Below, piece after piece: positions 18,583 to 44,683 of a stretch of DNA of 44,685 nt. The stretch spans positions 1-44,685 of the forward strand of contig JBAXPC010000001.1 of NCBI GenBank assembly GCA_037132395.1, in the 5' to 3' direction. Within the stretch, counting starts at the first letter, position 1. Every line of letters starts with the position of its first letter. This stretch comes from a bacterium. GTDB lineage: Bacteria; Patescibacteriota; Saccharimonadia; CAILAD01; BJGX01. The translations under genes were made by a program, and so were the position numbers. The notes beneath the pieces are model-generated. The model was not told the origin of the DNA. It searched no databases and worked only from the letters and a program-made list of their open reading frames with translations.

Positions 18583-19134
18583 ATGAAACTCATTATAGGA
18601 CTAGGCAACCCAGGACAAGAATATCAGGAGACTAGGCACAACCTCGGCTTCATGGTTATCGATGATCTAGCAAAGAGACTCAAGGTAGCCGTTAAGTTTG
18701 ATAAAAAACTCAAGGCTGATGTCTCGATGACTATTCACGGCGAGACTATCATACTGGCCAAACCACAGACTTTTATGAACCTGAGTGGCGATAGTGTTGC
18801 CAAGATTGCACATTTTTACAAGGTAAGTCCTGCTGATATTTGGGTAGTTTCTGATGATATTGATCTAGATTTTGGGACCATCAGGACTCGAGTCGGAGGA
18901 AGCAGTGGGGGACATAACGGCTTAAAAGATATTATTGCAAAAGTTGGTGAGAATTTTACCAGATTTCGAGTAGGAATCAAAAATGAAACTTCTGCAGACC
19001 TACCTTCGGAGGCTTTTGTACTGCAAAAGTTTAACACTAGTGAGCTAGCTAAGCTCGAAGACATCACTAGTAAAGTGGCTGACATGATTATAGAATCTAT
19101 CGAAAATGGGGTTGAAGAGACCTCGGTAAAATAG
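18583..19134 (+). CDS. pth: Peptidyl-tRNA hydrolase
   Basis: MKLIIGLGNPGQEYQETRHNLGF and GGHNGLKDI. TATAAT (18570-18575) lies 7 nt upstream of the ATG, with no SD. Confidence 0.92.
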   Translation: MKLIIGLGNPGQEYQETRHNLGFMVIDDLAKRLKVAVKFDKKLKADVSMTIHGETIILAKPQTFMNLSGDSVAKIAHFYKVSPADIWVVSDDIDLDFGTIRTRVGGSSGGHNGLKDIIAKVGENFTRFRVGIKNETSADLPSEAFVLQKFNTSELAKLEDITSKVADMIIESIENGVEETSVK

Positions 19135-19214
19135 CACTCCAGCGACTTATTAATGTACTTTATACCGCTCCATGCTCGCAATAATAATTATATCTTGCTA
19201 AGGTAGATTTAATA

Positions 19215-19451
19215 AAAACAAAAATAAAAAACAGACCAGCCGTATAAACTCGAACTGATCTGTTTATTATTCCCTTTAATGCCCCCGATAACGGGATTTT
19301 GGCGACCGTCACAAAATATATAAGTAGGCCGTGGCGTTAAAGGGAGTAATCTGCTCGCGAGATCTAAAAGGAGGGTGATTTTTAGATTAAGCCCCGCAGA
19401 GCAGATTACTCCCTTGAAATATATGGGAAATATGTTGTTGTTAAAAGAACG
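19215..19451 (-). ncRNA. Candidate small structured RNA of about 235 nt; class unknown
   Basis: Bounded by the TTGACA-17-TAGTAT promoter (19486-19458) and a 9-bp hairpin (19263-19255 / 19239-19231) with a long U-rich tail. Contains no AUG. Has a 17-bp perfect helix (19340-19356 / 19399-19415) with a nested 8-bp helix (19362-19369 / 19380-19387). An alternative 13-bp helix (19271-19283 / 19333-19345) is also possible. Confidence 0.5.
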
Positions 19452-19457
19452 ATTAGT

Positions 19458-19486
19458 ATACTATCACATAAGAAGTATATTGTCAA
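19458..19486 (-). promoter_or_regulatory. Near-consensus sigma70-type promoter for the minus-strand RNA
   Basis: On the minus strand: TTGACA, 17 nt, TAGTAT, with TG one base upstream of the hexamer (TGaTAGTAT). Confidence 0.5.
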
Positions 19487-19542
19487 TACTTTTTACCACT
19501 TATGTTTATTGCTACTGAAATAATTACAGATAGAACAAGAAA

Positions 19543-20394
19543 ATGAATATACAACATATTACACATAATGACAATAGTTTCCCCAAATTACTACGCAGCA
19601 TTGCTAGTCCGCCAAAACAGCTATACGTGGCCGGATCAATACCAGACTTGCCGATGGTAGCAATTGTTGGTACCAGGAGGCCTACAGCTTATGGAAATGA
19701 GATTACCTACAGGGTAGCGAGTGAGCTAGCTAAGGCTGGCTTTTGTGTAGTTAGTGGTATGGCACTGGGCATCGATAGTATCGTCCATAAGGCAGTCCTA
19801 GAGACCGGAGGATTAACCTTGGCGGTATTGGGCTGTGGACTCGATAGGCCTTACCCTAGGAGCAATACTGGCTTATTTGAAGCTATTATTAAATCTGGTG
19901 GAGCTGTTGTCAGCGAATACCCAGAGGGTACCGAGCCACTTCGGTTTAATTTTCCAGCCCGCAATAGAATAATAGCTGGGCTGAGCATGGCTACTGTAGT
20001 AACAGAGGCCGATGCCAAATCCGGTAGCCTGATAACCGCTAATTTCGCGCTGCAGGCAAACCGTATGGTAATGGCTATTCCTGGGAATATTACTAGCCAA
20101 CGTTCGGCAGGGCCTAATAACCTCATAAAGAGTGGTGCACATCTGGTGACAGGTGCATCAGACATCCTGGCACTACTTGGCTTCCTGAGCCCTCATCTCG
20201 TTAAAGCCAAGCCTAAGGCTGATAGCAAGCAAGAGGCTATGATAATGGATTTGCTTTCGGTTGAGTCGTTGACTTCTCAGCAGCTGATCGAGGAAACTAA
20301 GATTGACGCCATAAGCCTGGCCTCTATTATGAGCCTAATGGAGATAACTGGAAAAATAAAAAACCTCGGAGCAGGCAGCTGGATACTGGCTTAA
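19543..20394 (+). CDS. dprA: DNA processing protein DprA (Smf)
   Basis: VGTRRPTAYG, SGMALGIDS, AIPGNI Rossmann-like core, and a C-terminal winged-helix region. Confidence 0.9.
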   Translation: MNIQHITHNDNSFPKLLRSIASPPKQLYVAGSIPDLPMVAIVGTRRPTAYGNEITYRVASELAKAGFCVVSGMALGIDSIVHKAVLETGGLTLAVLGCGLDRPYPRSNTGLFEAIIKSGGAVVSEYPEGTEPLRFNFPARNRIIAGLSMATVVTEADAKSGSLITANFALQANRMVMAIPGNITSQRSAGPNNLIKSGAHLVTGASDILALLGFLSPHLVKAKPKADSKQEAMIMDLLSVESLTSQQLIEETKIDAISLASIMSLMEITGKIKNLGAGSWILA

Positions 20395-20396
20395 AG

Positions 20397-20425
20397 TTGA
20401 AATTATACAAATAATGTAGTATAAT
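20397..20425 (+). promoter_or_regulatory. Near-consensus sigma70-type promoter
   Basis: TTGAAA (20397-20402), 17 nt, TATAAT (20420-20425), starting 3 nt after the dprA stop. Confidence 0.55.
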
Positions 20426-20431
20426 ATGTTT

Positions 20432-20823
20432 GCAATGTTCTTTGGAAAACTAGCAGCTTAAAGCTAAAGGAAAGCCTTTCGCCCTTATGGTCTGTCAGCC
20501 CGTTGGGTTAAAGTCAAAGACAGTTGACCTTCTGCAGACAAAGAAGCGAGCTGAATTTACGCTCCTGCTTTGACCATGATAGACTGCTTTACTGCTAGCT
20601 GAGAGTTGCTACAAAAGCATCATAGGCAAGCCTCTGCAACCAATCGCAGGGCGGAGATGTCGGTATGGTACGGGAGAATTTGCCTCTCCCACCGACTGCT
20701 TGATTGCAATTCTCGGGGAGTGTCACTCCAAAATGACTGCTGCTTATATTTTTTTTACTAGCTAAGCAGCACATCCAAAGAATAGGGGCTCGGTGGTTAA
20801 AACCACCGAGCCCCATTTTTATT
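20432..20823 (+). ncRNA. Candidate structured RNA of about 390 nt; class unknown
   Basis: Lies between the consensus promoter and a 13-bp GC-rich terminator, GGGGCTCGGTGGT-taaa-ACCACCGAGCCCC plus T5 (20785-20820). It has many nested helices, for example a tiered hairpin at 20635-20708, GGTCTGTC...GACAGTTGACC at 20489-20529, and GCTGCTTA...TAAGCAGC at 20738-20770. There is no SD-led ORF. Confidence 0.55.
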
Positions 20824-25185: not shown

Positions 25186-27852
25186 ATGGAAATCTTAAGC
25201 ACTATTTTTATAACGATTGCTCAGGTAGTGAATACCGTACTATTTGAATTCTGGGGATGGCTACTCGTGGCTGGTTGGTTTGCTTACAAGATTTGGAAAA
25301 ATAACCAAAAAGTTTCCTACATAGAGCGTTCGGAGCATGTTCTGTTGCAAATTATTGTCCCTAAAGATAACGAAAAAAAAGAGCTTTCGGCTGAGCAGCT
25401 CTTTGCTAGTCTACATGGAATATTGAGACCCGTCGGAGACGATGGTACTATCCAGGAGCATATCAGCTTCGAGATAGTTTCACACGACCACTTAATTTAT
25501 TTTTATGTTTGGTGCCCGAAACACCTCAAGGACTATATTGAGAGCCAGGTTTATGCCCAGTATCCGCTAGTACAGATTACACCTATGGATACGGATTACA
25601 GCACAAATGATTTGGCTGGCAAGAGTGCTTTTGCAACGGAGATAGTGCTTACTAAAGACGAAATTTTCCCGATCAAAACCTTTTTGACTTTTGAGGTAGA
25701 TCCTTTGGCTGGCTTGACTACTGTTTTATCGAGCCTCGGAAATGATGAGGAGATGTGGATTCAAATGCTACTCGAACCCGTCAACGATAACTGGCATTCC
25801 AAATCTTTGCAGTATATCGATGAGGTCCGAAATGGCAAGCAGTCTGGAATCTTTGATAATTGGCAGAGCAGAACACTTAATTCGCCCTTCAAGTTTACTA
25901 AACTACTAGCTTCGGCGGCATTTACACCCAGTATCTACCAAGCAAAGTCTGCACCAAAATCTAAGCCCGACAAAAAAGAACTCTCCACGGGACAAACCAC
26001 ACTTCTTACAGCCGTTGAAACCAAGGCCCAAAAACTTGGTTATGCTGTCAAGATCCGAGTCTGCTATATCGGAATTAGCGAGCAGGCAGCAAAACAACGT
26101 CTGCAAGCCCTAGTAGGTGGTTTTAAGCAATTTAATACCATTAACCTTAACGGATTCGGAGGCACCCCGATGGTAGAGGGACAAGTCGCTATAGCGGCCT
26201 ACCAGCAAAGGCTGTTTGATGACTCTGGCTACATTCTGAATATCGAAGAGGTTGCCAGTGTTTTTCATTTGCCGCACACCAGTGTAGAAACCCCTAATAT
26301 TGCCTATACTTCGACTAAAGTAGGGGAGCCACCAGCGGGCTTACCAACCCTAGCCAACACCAAGGCAGAGGAGTTGAGTTTGTTTGGAAGCACAACCTTT
26401 AGGCAGGGCAACATAAAATTTGGAATCAAAAGAATTGATCGTGAGAGGCACCTTTATGTAATTGGTAAGAGCGGGGTAGGTAAGTCTTTTATGCTTAATC
26501 TTCTAGCGCTATCTGATATTCACCAAAACGAAGGCTTTGCGATTGTTGACCCGCACGGCGATTTGGCCCAAGACATTATGCGTTTCATACCAGAGCACCG
26601 TATCAAAGATGTGATATATATTAATCCTGATGATGTCGACTTTCCGGTTGCTTTTAACCCCATGGAATATACCGATGTTAACAGGCGTAATAACATTGCA
26701 TCTGAGATTGTCGGCGTTCTAAAAAAGATGTTTGGAGATAGCTGGGGCCCAAGGCTAGAGCACATTTTGCGCTTTACGCTATTGGCGCTATTAGAAACTC
26801 CAGGAACCACAATGCTTGGTATTACCCGTATGCTAACAGACAAAAACTATCGCAAAATGATAGTCGATAATGTTGCCGACCCGGTCGTGAAGGCTTTTTG
26901 GCTAACAGAGTTTGCCAGCTGGAACGATAAGTTTGCGGCCGAGGCCGTACAGCCGGTTTTAAATAAAGTCGGGGCTTTTACAGCCGTACCGATAGTCCGT
27001 AATATTATTGGTCAGCCCAATAGTTCGTTCTCGATACGCAAGGCAATGGATGAAGGAAAAATTATTATTGTAAACCTCAGCCGCGGTCTGATTGGTGAAG
27101 ACAACGCCGCTATTTTAGGCTCGCTAATAATTACCAAAATCCAGCTTGATGCGATGAGCCGTTCGGACATTTCAGATATCACAGCCAGGCGACCTTTTTA
27201 TCTCTATGTAGATGAATTCCAGAATTTTGCAACAGAATCTTTTGCAGTAATTTTATCTGAAGCACGTAAGTACGGCTTAAGGCTAACAGTAGCTAACCAG
27301 TACGTCTCACAGATGCCAGAAGAGGTTAGGGACGCTGTTTTTGGTAATGTTGGGTCAATGGTAACCTTCAGGGTAGGTGCTGATGACGCACAATATTTGT
27401 CTAAGTATTTTGAGCCAACTTTTGAGCCAATCGACTTGGTGAATCTTGATAAACGCAACATTTATGTATCGATGAGTATCGATGGCCAAACGTCCATCCC
27501 TTTTAGCGCTCAAAGCTTGAACATGCCACCACCATCTGACGATCATACAGCAGCTATTATTGAGCATTCTAGACATCATTACTCGATACCGAGGACGGAA
27601 GTAGAGCAGATTATCGGCGAGTGGGCAGCACCACCGGACCCCAGAGACGCTGCCAATCGAAGTGATGGCTCTAGTAACTCTAGGCCTGCCTACGGCCAAG
27701 CGAACAGCCAGGCAGCCCCTAGAGAGCCTCAGGCGAGGCAAAATAAACCAGAGCTCCATGGCGTCGAACCAAAAAGGTACAGTGACATGATAAAAAACAA
27801 AGACCACGGACCCAGCCAAAATAACCGGTACAAGAGGCACTACAAAAAATAG
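25186..27852 (+). CDS. Membrane-anchored TraD/VirD4/TrwB-like P-loop ATPase (type IV coupling-protein-like)
   Basis: N-terminal TM hairpin, Walker A GKSGVGKS, Walker B FYLYVDEFQNF. The 90-aa C-terminal tail is basic and looks disordered. Confidence 0.7.
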   Translation: MEILSTIFITIAQVVNTVLFEFWGWLLVAGWFAYKIWKNNQKVSYIERSEHVLLQIIVPKDNEKKELSAEQLFASLHGILRPVGDDGTIQEHISFEIVSHDHLIYFYVWCPKHLKDYIESQVYAQYPLVQITPMDTDYSTNDLAGKSAFATEIVLTKDEIFPIKTFLTFEVDPLAGLTTVLSSLGNDEEMWIQMLLEPVNDNWHSKSLQYIDEVRNGKQSGIFDNWQSRTLNSPFKFTKLLASAAFTPSIYQAKSAPKSKPDKKELSTGQTTLLTAVETKAQKLGYAVKIRVCYIGISEQAAKQRLQALVGGFKQFNTINLNGFGGTPMVEGQVAIAAYQQRLFDDSGYILNIEEVASVFHLPHTSVETPNIAYTSTKVGEPPAGLPTLANTKAEELSLFGSTTFRQGNIKFGIKRIDRERHLYVIGKSGVGKSFMLNLLALSDIHQNEGFAIVDPHGDLAQDIMRFIPEHRIKDVIYINPDDVDFPVAFNPMEYTDVNRRNNIASEIVGVLKKMFGDSWGPRLEHILRFTLLALLETPGTTMLGITRMLTDKNYRKMIVDNVADPVVKAFWLTEFASWNDKFAAEAVQPVLNKVGAFTAVPIVRNIIGQPNSSFSIRKAMDEGKIIIVNLSRGLIGEDNAAILGSLIITKIQLDAMSRSDISDITARRPFYLYVDEFQNFATESFAVILSEARKYGLRLTVANQYVSQMPEEVRDAVFGNVGSMVTFRVGADDAQYLSKYFEPTFEPIDLVNLDKRNIYVSMSIDGQTSIPFSAQSLNMPPPSDDHTAAIIEHSRHHYSIPRTEVEQIIGEWAAPPDPRDAANRSDGSSNSRPAYGQANSQAAPREPQARQNKPELHGVEPKRYSDMIKNKDHGPSQNNRYKRHYKK

Positions 27853-28171
27853 CACTCATTGAAATGTAGGCTAGTTTTGCTTTTATATAAGCAAAAGACC
27901 TATACTAACACCTAACTACTTCATAAAAATACTATGTCGCACAATATATCTTTTGCGACATTATTGTTACTAATACTCAAATAACAACTTAAATGGCATT
28001 ATTTGTATTTTATTCGACTTCCCTATTTTTTTTTGTCTTTTTTATATTATGGCGCTCAGTTTGTAATTGCTCTGTACTTAGCTTGTTTTATAATAAAATG
28101 TACTAATAAACAAAAACCGAACTAGGAGAGGGGTTAGAGGTTTTCAGTCTTATTGGGCTTCTATGATTGAG

Positions 28172-35496: not shown

Positions 35497-35789
35497 TGTC
35501 AAGGTCACCTATTTAGCAGCCAGTTATTGGTTTTTGTTTTTGTTTTTTGGTTAAAGGGCTCAAGGCTTTTGGCGCTTGAACCGCTATGTGGTAAGGACTT
35601 TAATGAGTCCTTATTGAGTGTGTGAGATAGTTTGTGAGGTGGAGTTTTATATTGTTTCATAAGATGCTAGGGTCTTTATTTAAGCGTCACCCTCCAGAAA
35701 CGCTTACTGACTGCCAAATAGTTAACTTTGTGTTTTGATTTTTATTTTTGTTTTTAAGGATCCGGCTATTATAAGTCCATCGGATAGCT

Positions 35790-44608: not shown

Positions 44609-44683
44609 TGGGGCGTCGCCAAGTGGTAAGGCAACGGTTTTTGGTACCGTCATACGCAGGTTCGAACCCTGCCGCCCCAGCCA
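44609..44683 (+). tRNA. tRNA-Gln (anticodon UUG) with encoded CCA
   Basis: Cloverleaf: acceptor TGGGGCG/CGCCCCA; D-arm region TCGCCAAGTGGTAAGGCA; anticodon stem ACGGT/ACCGT with loop TT-TTG-GT; T-arm GCAGG-TTCGAAC-CCTGC; discriminator G plus CCA. Closely parallels the E. coli tRNA-Gln layout as I remember it. Confidence 0.9.

What the first reader, a model, noticed from the sequence alone, without database searches (positions are those of the whole stretch)
19205..19486. Second orphan sRNA gene (~235 nt, minus strand) between pth and dprA, with mutually exclusive long helices
On the minus strand a TTGACA-17-TAGTAT promoter with an upstream TG drives a segment that contains no AUG at all. The segment ends in a 9-bp hairpin followed by UUUUUUAUUUUUGUUUUU.

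The body holds a 17-bp perfect helix (19340-19356 with 19399-19415) capped by an 8-bp helix. A 13-bp helix (19271-19283 with 19333-19345) competes with the first for 6 nt, which gives a switch-like arrangement. A CCCG-UUAU-CGGG hairpin is also present.

The -10 region TAGTATACTA is palindromic, so it could also serve as a plus-strand -10 for dprA. In that case the RNA and dprA would be divergently and overlappingly controlled. I recognise no known family motif.
Basis: partly seen in the sequence, partly recalled or inferred. Interest (0 to 1): 0.65.

Follow-up and report, generated by a model that had tools for sequence, protein, structure and literature searches.

The report
New Saccharibacteria small RNA beside dprA
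A roughly 235-nt gene for a highly structured non-coding RNA lies back-to-back with the DNA-uptake gene dprA here and in almost every related Saccharibacteria genome sampled; it matches no catalogued RNA family and always shows a ribosome-tail-like ACCCUCC loop, so it is probably an undescribed regulator in a poorly understood bacterial group.

Summary
Window 19208-19486 (minus strand) carries a TTGACA-17-TGnTAGTAT promoter, a body of about 235 nt without AUG, and a hairpin plus U-tract terminator.

The same gene is present in about 50 Saccharibacteria loci. It is 69-97% identical in DNA where the neighbouring genes are 59-87% identical.

Sixteen base pairs show compensatory changes. G-U against A-C counts (125 against 3) place the RNA on the minus strand. 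No Rfam family matches, and ARAGORN finds no tRNA or tmRNA gene there.

A covariance model built only from longer forms (375-520 nt) in distant Saccharibacteria finds the window RNA. The window copy is therefore a reduced member of a class-wide family. The family lies divergent from dprA in every locus but one; the link to pth is not conserved.

One feature never changes: an apical loop (U/C)ACCCUCC, which resembles the anti-Shine-Dalgarno tail of 16S rRNA.

The "switch" exists in the sequence, and the two conformers are nearly equal in energy. It is lineage-specific, however: the 13-bp helix is ancestral and the base of the 17-bp helix is a later addition. The palindromic -10 is not conserved.

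The most likely function is a trans-acting RNA that pairs with G-rich ribosome-binding sites. That function is inferred, not shown.

The parts
19481..19486 (-). -35 box TTGACA of the RNA promoter
   Evidence: It is invariant in 10 of 10 aligned relatives, and GTATTGACA is also kept in the long-form loci.
19458..19466 (-). Extended -10, TGaTAGTAT. The inferred transcription start is near 19452 (+/-2).
   Evidence: GTGATAnnAT is invariant in relatives. The start site is inferred from spacing and was not measured.
19416..19452 (-). 5' leader, variable in sequence. It holds UUUCCC (19425-19430), which can pair with the GGGA of 19410-19413 (helix P0).
   Evidence: Minimum-free-energy fold. An equivalent C-rich segment pairs with segment 1 in most but not all relatives (sequences). 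In L054 the leader is expanded with ACCUCCUUA and CACCUCA motifs that are predicted to be unpaired.
19399..19415 (-). P1 5' strand, AAGGGAGUAAUCUGCUC
   Evidence: Pairs with 19340-19356 (I1). There are compensatory changes at 6 pairs in A3 and 9 in A6.
19340..19356 (-). P1 3' strand, GAGCAGAUUACUCCCUU. Its last 6 nt (19340-19345) are shared with P3.
19357..19398 (-). P2a (19392-19396 with 19358-19362) and P2 (19380-19386 with 19363-19369), the hairpin that caps P1
   Evidence: P2a has 3-4 compensatory pairs. P2 has C-G/U-A exchanges in L054-L058.
19370..19379 (-). Apical loop AUCACCCUCC. The ACCCUCC core resembles the anti-Shine-Dalgarno sequence.
   Evidence: CACCCUCC is invariant in all short forms. 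(U/C)ACCCUCC is kept in all but one family member found, including the long forms; L011 reads ACCCCCC.
19333..19345 (-). P3 5' strand, UCCCUUUAACGCC
   Evidence: Pairs with 19271-19283 (I2). Compensatory changes occur at 2 pairs. The outer 6 pairs are possible in 25 of 25 sequences. The same helix, CCCUUUAA / UUGAAGGG, closes the 3' domain in long forms.
19271..19283 (-). P3 3' strand, GGCAUUAAAGGGA
19303..19331 (-). P4 hairpin (19327-19331 with 19303-19307) with an AU-rich loop
   Evidence: It has G-U to G-C changes and 2 compensatory pairs.
19284..19295 (-). P5 hairpin, CCCG-UUAU-CGGG
   Evidence: Read directly from the sequence. Clade B has CCCAG...CUGGG, read by eye. MAFFT shifts the register between clades, so the pairs were not counted.
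19208..19271 (-). Intrinsic terminator: stem 19255-19263 with 19231-19239, extendable to 19271/19223, followed by a U-tract. It probably also terminates pth on the plus strand.
   Evidence: I3. Two compensatory pairs and an invariant U-G pair are present on the minus strand. Bidirectional use is an inference.
19156..19181 (.). Conserved block TTGC[G/T]AGCATG[G/T/A]AGCGG[A/T]ATAAA downstream of the terminator. Its function is unexplained and its membership in the unit is uncertain.
   Evidence: It is present in every short-form locus with a standard terminator, 37-75 nt beyond the terminator stem and up to about 340 nt beyond it in L052 and L055. It is unique in the window.

Best explanation
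**Shown.** Window positions from about 19452 to about 19215 (minus strand) form a self-contained gene for a structured non-coding RNA. It has a strong sigma-70 promoter with an extended -10 and an intrinsic terminator.

The architecture has three parts:
- a 5' leader;
- a long irregular hairpin (P1-P2a-P2) ending in an invariant ACCCUCC loop;
- a three-way junction closed by P3 that carries hairpins P4 and P5.

It is a size-reduced member of an RNA family found throughout Saccharibacteria, 230-520 nt long. The family is under much stronger sequence constraint than the flanking protein genes. In all loci but one it is transcribed divergently from dprA.

**Inferred.** The RNA acts in trans as a base-pairing regulator. 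Its exposed C-rich, anti-Shine-Dalgarno-like loop pairs with G-rich ribosome-binding regions (GGAGGGU-like) of target mRNAs and blocks translation initiation. Additional C-rich single strands in the leader may help in some lineages. This is how the UCCC/C-rich-loop sRNAs of Gram-positive bacteria work.

In the window's lineage the internal AAGGGA and UCCCUU segments allow two nearly isoenergetic folds: P0 plus full P3, or full P1. These folds may tune which segments are exposed. The targets are unknown.
For: **It is a gene.**
- Promoter and terminator are present.
- The -35 box and extended -10 are invariant across relatives.

**It is under selection.**
- RNA DNA identity is 97.0, 95.6, 90.4, 86.1 and 73.1% in loci where dprA DNA is 79, 70, 65, 70 and 64% identical.

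**The structure is supported.**
- In 24 sequences 97.8% of cells pair, with 9 compensatory pairs.
- In 25 sequences 95.6% pair, with 16 compensatory pairs, against 34-48% when partners are slid.

**The strand is minus.**
- 125 G-U cells against 3 A-C cells; only 88.6% would pair on the plus strand.

**The family is wide.**
- Model R2, built from 7 long-form sequences only, finds the window RNA at 19333-19410(-) with 32 bits and E=6e-4. It also finds every short-form locus at the right place.
- L058 and L018 bridge the two forms.

**The seed is plausible.**
- The loop (U/C)ACCCUCC is kept in all but one member found (L011 reads ACCCCCC), while the stems around it covary.
- The leader of L054 carries ACCUCCUUA and two CACCUCA motifs that are predicted to be single-stranded.
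- About 16 of 44 window genes have GGAG-type ribosome-binding sites that such a loop could cover.
- A plasmid-like contig (L069) carries a shorter sRNA-like unit with the identical 17-nt hairpin and a second UACCCUCC in its terminator. This suggests the hairpin is a portable functional module.

**It is not coding.**
- There is no AUG, all frames contain stops, and the plus-strand ORF is broken in relatives.
Against: - No expression data exist, and no target has been identified.
- The best complementarities in the 44-kb window are no better than chance. One example is the 9-nt match GGAGGGUGA in the mraZ-rsmH spacer, which has a chance probability of about 0.3.
- The invariant extra C means the loop is not a perfect mimic of the anti-SD ACCUCC. 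Pairing with a canonical GGAGG site would leave a bulge.
- A conserved multi-domain structure of 230-520 nt, with helices conserved in sequence (P3), is more than a simple seed-bearing sRNA needs. It is typical of RNAs that bind proteins or have tertiary folds.
- The tight link to dprA is not explained by a trans-acting role.
Confidence: 0.4

Rival explanations
1. It is a protein-binding or ribonucleoprotein RNA. The conserved fold and loop are recognised by a protein. Candidates are a factor that normally binds the 16S 3' tail, an RNA-binding regulator that the RNA sequesters, or DprA and the recombination machinery encoded next door. Under this reading base pairing with mRNAs is not the main activity.
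For: - The multi-domain structure is conserved across the whole class, and P3 is conserved in sequence as well as in pairing.
- Size varies through inserted hairpins around a fixed core, as in RNase P or SRP RNA.
- The RNA is linked to dprA in all loci but one.
- In short forms the loop and its 3' flank (AUCACCCUCCUUUUAG) resemble the last 15 nt of a typical 16S rRNA. That comparison rests on my own knowledge of the 16S tail; the 16S gene of this organism is not in the window.
Against: - No partner protein is identifiable.
- Gene order in Saccharibacteria is generally conserved, so adjacency alone is weak evidence.
- L077 shows that the RNA gene keeps its own promoter when separated from dprA by RecT/FtsK-type mobile-element genes.
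- DprA is known as a single-stranded-DNA binder, not an RNA binder (my own knowledge).
Confidence: 0.25
2. Its main role is local, in cis. The very strong divergent promoter lies 11-60 nt from the dprA start codon and controls the dprA-topA operon. It could do so by promoter occlusion or by transcription-coupled supercoiling. Alternatively the RNA could pair with pth-to-dprA read-through transcripts, to which it is fully complementary.
For: - The RNA 5' end lies 87-95 nt from the dprA ATG in short forms. In long forms the -35 box lies only 11-34 nt from the ATG.
- No convincing independent sigma-70 promoter for dprA was found in the spacer.
- The rearrangements seen all occurred on the pth side, never between the RNA and dprA, apart from L077.
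Against: - Promoter interference would not require a conserved, covarying structure of 230-520 nt or an invariant loop.
- The terminator hairpin should stop most plus-strand read-through.
- The RNA gene persists with its promoter next to unrelated genes in L077.
Confidence: 0.15
3. It is a sensor RNA, either a riboswitch-like sRNA or an RNA thermometer. A ligand, temperature or co-transcriptional folding selects between the P0 plus P3 fold and the full P1 fold, which changes what the RNA exposes.
For: - A four-segment arrangement exists (UUUCCC / AAGGGAG / CUCCCUUU / AAAGGGA), with both AAGGGA copies invariant in the window's clade.
- The two folds differ by 1 kcal/mol or less in 12 of 24 members.
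- One compensatory change occurs in the base of P1, A-U to G-C in L056 and L057.
- P0 partners change together in several lineages (read by eye).
Against: - The competing 5' AAGGGA is missing from L058, L018 and all long forms, and is weakened in L054. P0 is absent from L030, L038, L039, L041 and L052.
- Both folds keep the terminator and the loop intact, so the output of the switch is unclear.
- No pocket-like conserved junction has been identified.
Confidence: 0.1
4. It is a plus-strand element: a structured 5' leader or small ORF of dprA.
For: - The plus strand also folds well, with a z-score of -6.3.
- AAGGAGG followed by GTG on the plus strand opens a 47-codon ORF.
Against: - 125 G-U cells would become A-C mismatches on the plus strand.
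- The conserved promoter and U-tract are on the minus strand.
- The ORF contains stops in most relatives.
- No plus-strand promoter was found between 19200 and 19543.
Confidence: 0.02

Closest known systems
UCCC / C-rich-motif sRNAs of Firmicutes (RsaE/RoxS, other Rsa RNAs, LhrC); Geissmann et al. 2009, PMC2790875; LhrC, PMC4132741
   Same: - They are stand-alone genes with their own promoter and an intrinsic terminator.
- C-rich motifs sit in hairpin loops or single strands and pair with G-rich Shine-Dalgarno regions.
- Each RNA often carries several such motifs.
- They act without Hfq.
   Different: - There is no sequence or covariance-model similarity.
- This RNA is 2-5 times longer, with a conserved three-way junction.
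- The motif here is an invariant 7-mer, ACCCUCC, rather than UCCC.
- Targets and expression have not been tested.
Staphylococcus aureus RNAIII (from my own knowledge)
   Same: - It is a large multi-hairpin regulatory RNA.
- Its C-rich apical loops occlude ribosome-binding sites.
- It is transcribed divergently from a neighbouring operon across a short shared control region.
   Different: - RNAIII encodes a peptide and is specific to one genus.
- This RNA has no ORF and is conserved across a whole class.
- There is no homology.
- The neighbouring operon is dprA-topA, not a quorum-sensing system.
Actinobacterial 6C RNA (from my own knowledge)
   Same: It is conserved at phylum level, and its function lies in C-rich hairpin loops that pair with mRNAs.
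   Different: - 6C RNA has two short hairpins in 60-80 nt.
- No Rfam match was found.
- The architecture is different.
Orphan structured RNAs with 3' terminators and a gene association (raiA, drum, skipping-rope, DUF3800 motifs); Weinberg et al. 2017, PMC5737381
   Same: - They have highly conserved complex folds followed by an intrinsic terminator.
- They do not lie in a 5' UTR.
- They show a persistent association with one nearby gene in either orientation. raiA RNAs lie next to the competence gene comFC.
- Their function is unknown.
   Different: - None of these Rfam models matches, even at E up to 10.
- The phylum is different.
- The associated gene here is dprA.

Membership tests
Any Rfam 15 family (including 6S, RNase P, SRP, tmRNA, RsaE, 6C, raiA, drum, T-box, riboswitches) | The covariance-model score reaches the family's gathering threshold. 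| tested here: not met
   The only window hit at gathering threshold is a tRNA at 44609. With E up to 10 on 19000-19700 the best score is 22 bits against a threshold of 93, which is noise. Eleven related loci gave no hits. The long form in L010 gave only noise.
tmRNA / tRNA-like | A tRNA-like domain and tag reading frame detectable by ARAGORN. | tested here: not met
   nothing was found at the locus in the window or in six long-form loci.
6S RNA | A rod-like fold in which the 5' and 3' ends pair and a large central bubble is present. | tested here: not met
   The consensus fold is a 5' hairpin domain, a three-way junction and a terminator. The ends do not pair.
C-rich-loop, SD-targeting trans sRNAs (RsaE-like mode of action) | An independent transcription unit with its own promoter and intrinsic terminator. 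| tested here: met
   This was met at the sequence level only. The promoter and terminator are conserved and the terminator stem covaries. No transcript data are available.
C-rich-loop, SD-targeting trans sRNAs (RsaE-like mode of action) | A conserved C-rich motif exposed in a loop or single strand. | tested here: met
   ACCCUCC is kept in the apical loop in all but one member (L011 has ACCCCCC), while the stem beneath covaries.
C-rich-loop, SD-targeting trans sRNAs (RsaE-like mode of action) | Demonstrable pairing with ribosome-binding sites of target mRNAs, conserved across species. | tested here: inconclusive
   Only 44 kb of this genome is held. Duplex predictions favour SD-bearing genes, as expected. 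No extended match exceeds chance. Whole genomes are needed.
Riboswitch / transcription attenuator (cis leader) | It lies in the 5' UTR of a gene on the same strand, and the terminator is part of an expression platform. | tested here: not met
   Downstream on the minus strand is the 3' end of the convergent pth gene. In other loci the downstream genes differ and have either orientation.
Cis-antisense RNA of dprA | It overlaps the dprA transcript. | not testable with these tools
   It does not overlap the dprA coding sequence; the 5' ends lie 87-95 nt apart. The dprA transcription start is unknown.
Repeat or mobile element (MITE-like inverted repeat) | Multiple copies per genome, or variable genomic location. 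| tested here: not met
   There is a single copy in the window. The location is fixed in about 50 loci. There is no match in the phage or plasmid collections.

The most novel reading that the evidence does not exclude
The RNA is a class-wide housekeeping riboregulator specific to Saccharibacteria, not an ordinary stress sRNA. It could be a mimic of the 16S rRNA 3' tail that sets the balance between Shine-Dalgarno-led and leaderless translation. Alternatively it could be an RNA partner of the DprA/natural-transformation machinery beside which it is almost always encoded. Either would be a new kind of RNA function in the candidate phyla radiation. Mobile elements may carry copies of its seed hairpin (L069).
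Probability: 0.12. Interest if true: 0.85.

Novelty: new member of a known kind. Interest (0 to 1): 0.6.

Why it matters
Saccharibacteria and other candidate-phyla-radiation bacteria have tiny genomes and few recognisable regulators. My searches of the held literature found no described regulatory RNA for them.

This RNA is better conserved than the essential-looking protein genes around it. It is present across the class and is fixed next to a natural-transformation gene. That makes it one of the strongest candidates for a lineage-defining non-coding function.

It is now directly testable. Saccharibacteria can be cultured on their hosts and manipulated through natural transformation (PMC10633639).

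It would also fill a gap in Rfam and in genome annotation, where this 230-520 nt stretch is currently left as empty intergenic DNA.

Tried and rejected
1. **Rfam.** Searches at gathering and at permissive thresholds on the window and on 11 loci found nothing. ARAGORN found nothing.
2. **Plus-strand leader or small ORF.** Rejected by the G-U/A-C asymmetry and by stops in relatives.
3. **Shared palindromic -10 for dprA.** The palindrome is not conserved.
4. **Model R1.** This model was built from short forms only. It was too sequence-specific (effective number of sequences 1.13) and did not find the long forms. It was replaced by R2, built from long forms, which finds the short forms.
5. **The 25-nt block downstream of the terminator.** I tested it as a sigma-70 promoter: the spacer is 11 nt, and the -10 for the plus-strand version is not conserved. 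I tested it as the start of a small ORF (MERNK...): it is not conserved beyond 5 codons. I tested it as a partner of the RNA's 5' end or of the P1/P2a junction: the co-variation is inconsistent. It remains unexplained.
6. **Targets.** The loop complement GGAGGGU occurs once elsewhere in the window, in the mraZ-rsmH spacer. That is within chance expectation.
7. **Viral contigs.** The long-form 17-mer occurs in 18 IMG/VR contigs.
   - Fourteen of them are one family of cyanophage-like siphoviruses. There it is the junction of a tail-assembly gene and the host-specificity gene.
   - The number of independent hits is in the range I estimate by chance, so this is not a target.
   - Only L077 carries the real RNA.
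8. **An intramolecular partner for the loop.** The GGGGG and GGGUGGG runs are already used by P5 and P3, and no consistent pseudoknot was found.
9. **Literature.** Searches for a Saccharibacteria or dprA-linked RNA found none.

Full report
**Context.** The window comes from a freshwater Saccharibacterium; the best relative is MAG JBAXMM010000001, whose DprA is 98% identical. Pfam confirms the local gene order: ScpA, ScpB, a pseudouridine synthase, a D-Ala-D-Ala carboxypeptidase, Der, Pth, a 408-nt gap, DprA, a 590-nt gap, DUF6790 and TopA. The finding occupies the gap between Pth and DprA.

**Observation.**
- The promoter is TTGACA (19486-19481), a 17-nt spacer and TAGTAT (19463-19458), with an upstream TG.
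- The 17-bp perfect helix pairs 19399-19415 with 19340-19356. It is capped by the 8-bp helix 19380-19387 with 19362-19369.
- The 13-bp helix pairs 19271-19283 with 19333-19345 and shares 6 nt with the first helix.
- The CCCG-UUAU-CGGG hairpin and a 9-bp terminator stem with a long U-tract are also present.
- The 13-bp helix has a C-A mismatch on the RNA strand.
- The minus strand folds with a z-score of -8.5, against -6.3 for the plus strand.
- The 245-nt body has no AUG. Only 1.25% of shuffles share that property.

**It is a conserved gene.** Loci were collected from three sources.
- Twenty-eight came from species-representative genomes through DprA.
- Twenty-one came from metagenomes through an exact pattern from the loop region. 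Twenty of these are real and one is a chance hit.
- Ten came through DprA homologues of 57-70% identity.

About 50 loci carry the RNA, representing roughly 40 distinct sequences. Its DNA is 97.0, 95.6, 90.4, 86.1 and 73.1% identical to the window copy in loci where dprA DNA is 79, 70, 65, 70 and 64% identical. The pth and der genes are similarly diverged. The -35 box and GTGATAnnAT are invariant.

**Structure and strand.** On 24 short-form sequences the consensus structure pairs in 97.8% of cells, with 9 pairs showing changes on both sides. Sliding the partners drops pairing to 35-53%. With the more diverse set of 25 sequences, 95.6% of cells pair and 16 pairs have compensatory changes, against 34-48% for slid controls. 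On the minus strand 125 cells are G-U and only 3 are A-C. Read as plus-strand RNA, pairing falls to 88.6%. The plus-strand ORF that starts at the mirror-image AAGGAGG-GTG is broken by stops in most relatives.

**A wider family.** In Saccharibacteria whose DprA is only 43-52% identical, the same position holds a longer element of 375-520 nt, also divergent from dprA. These loci are L009-L012, L014, L016, L021 and L026.
- The promoter is of the same type, GTATTGACA-N14-TGCTAGAAT.
- The landmarks come in the same order: a long helix enclosing a hairpin with loop UUGUUACCCUCCACUU, then AGACUAAUCCCUUUAAC, and far downstream GGGUGGGUUGAAGGGUGU and a terminator.
- A covariance model built only from seven of these sequences, in which L018 replaces the inner half of P1 by compensatory changes, finds the window RNA at 19333-19410(-). 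The score is 32 bits with E=6e-4 in 204 kb. It also finds every short-form locus at the right place, as well as L011 and L021.
- L018 (231 nt, oral) and L058 (about 230 nt) have short-form size but long-form leader and terminator-loop motifs. They fold into the clean architecture: leader, P1/P2, a P3-closed three-way junction with P4 and P5, and a terminator.
- Nothing in Rfam matches either form, and ARAGORN finds nothing.

**What never changes.** The apical loop keeps (U/C)ACCCUCC in all but one member found (L011 has ACCCCCC), although the stems below it covary. This is the anti-Shine-Dalgarno core ACCUCC with one extra C. In short forms the similarity to a typical 16S 3' end extends to AUCACC(C)UCCUUU; that comparison is from my own knowledge, because the 16S gene is not in the window. 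Other C-rich single strands occur in the leaders. The window has UUUCCC, the long forms have UAUACCCCC, and L054 has ACCUCCUUA plus two CACCUCA motifs predicted to be unpaired. The long forms also have GCCCACCCCCUC in the terminator loop.

**The "switch".** In the window's lineage four segments can pair in two ways: UUUCCC, AAGGGAG, CUCCCUUU and AAAGGGA. One fold has P0 plus full P3; the other has full P1.
- The two ensembles differ by 1 kcal/mol or less in 12 of 24 members. In the window they are populated 64% and 35%.
- The outer P3 pairs are possible in 25 of 25 sequences and in all long forms.
- The base of P1 pairs in 22-24 of 25 sequences and shows one compensatory change.
- The 5' AAGGGA is absent from L058, L018 and the long forms, and is weakened in L054. 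P0 is missing from several members.

P3 is therefore ancestral and the competing extension of P1 is a lineage-specific addition. It may matter in that lineage, but it is not the defining property of the family.

**Genomic linkage.** The RNA 5' end lies 87-95 nt from the dprA start in short forms. In long forms the -35 box is only 11-34 nt from the ATG. The pth side is variable.
- LemA and HtpX lie there in L008.
- Three unrelated ORFs lie there in L015.
- A NUDIX gene lies there in L052.
- Extra ORFs lie there in L055 and L059.

The one exception to the dprA link is L077, an IMG/VR contig. There RecT and FtsK/PD-(D/E)XK genes lie upstream of an intact RNA gene with its own promoter.

**Mechanism.** What is shown is a well-supported, independently promoted and terminated, structured RNA gene of a new family. 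Its function is inferred.
- The best-supported reading is a trans-acting RNA that uses its invariant C-rich loop to pair with G-rich ribosome-binding sites, like the UCCC-motif sRNAs of Firmicutes (PMC2790875, PMC4132741).
- About 16 of 44 window genes have GGAG-type sites, and about 9 look leaderless.
- Duplex predictions simply rank the SD-bearing genes first.
- No specific target could be established from 44 kb. The single extra GGAGGGUGA, in the mraZ-rsmH spacer, is within chance.

The size and sequence-conserved helices keep a protein-binding or RNP role alive. The near-overlap of promoters keeps a local effect on dprA-topA alive.

**Leads that failed.** The 17-nt long-form loop sequence occurs in 18 IMG/VR contigs. 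Fourteen of them are one cyanophage-like siphovirus family, where it spans the junction between the tail-assembly and host-specificity genes. I estimate that the count of independent hits is what chance would give, so this is not a target. There is no similarity to deposited phages or plasmids. The literature held here describes no such RNA.

**Verdict.** This is a real RNA gene of a previously uncatalogued family that spans the Saccharibacteria. The switch and the shared -10 are secondary or unsupported. The kind of object, a bacterial structured small RNA, is known; this family, its invariant loop and its fixed position beside dprA are new. Interest is 0.6.

Noticed in passing
window 20397-20815 (+): A second orphan RNA-like unit lies immediately downstream of dprA. 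It has a near-consensus promoter, TTGAAA-17-TATAAT (11 of 12 matches). It has about 385 nt with no long ORF and a perfect terminator, GGGGCUCGGUGG-UUAAAA-CCACCGAGCCCC followed by a U-run, at 20786-20815. No Rfam match was found. It is conserved only in close relatives and evolves much faster than the RNA studied here.
   Followed up: partly
window 19156-19181; L001-L059 equivalents: A conserved block of about 25 nt, TTGC[G/T]AGCATG[G/T/A]AGCGG[A/T]ATAAA, lies 37-75 nt beyond the terminator stem. In L052 and L055 it lies up to about 340 nt beyond. It occurs in all short-form loci, whichever gene follows. It is not a sigma-70 promoter by spacing, not an ORF, and has no consistent pairing partner.
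   Followed up: partly
L069:4672-4870 (-) (IMGVR_UViG_3300024186_000074): A plasmid- or ICE-like contig of 54% GC, with Replic_Relax and HTH genes, carries an sRNA-like unit of about 170 nt. Its -10 context (TTTGCTAGAAT) is the same as in the family, and it has the identical 17-nt GUUGUUACCCUCCACUU hairpin. It has a second UACCCUCC in its terminator stem. It may be a mobile-element copy of the family's seed hairpin.
   Followed up: partly
L077:3814-8380 (IMGVR_UViG_3300049064_000004): This is the only locus where the RNA is not next to dprA. RecT and FtsK/PD-(D/E)XK genes of a putative integrated element lie upstream of an intact long-form RNA gene. The element may have inserted between the RNA and dprA.
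   Followed up: partly
window 35509-35789 (-), between mraZ and rsmH: This 280-nt spacer contains GGAGGGUGA, a perfect 9-nt complement of the RNA's loop, and a CUCCACCUCAC stretch. The match is within chance expectation (probability about 0.3), but it lies at the head of the dcw cluster.
   Followed up: partly
window, many gene starts (e.g. 18583, 13104, 10835, 36312, 42426, 38928): About 9 of 44 genes have a TATAAT-like box 5-9 nt upstream of the start codon and no Shine-Dalgarno sequence, so they look leaderless. About 16 have GGAG-type sites.
   Followed up: partly
window ~27850-28170: Gene orientation flips from the plus to the minus strand (convergent), and the cumulative GC skew peaks here. 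This looks like a replication terminus region.
   Followed up: no
L010:2400-2560 (-): There is a partial tandem duplication of the 3' part of the long-form RNA: a second AUGACGCUUCGCUCG... segment and a second CUGCAGGCUCUUUUUU terminator half, downstream of the first terminator.
   Followed up: no
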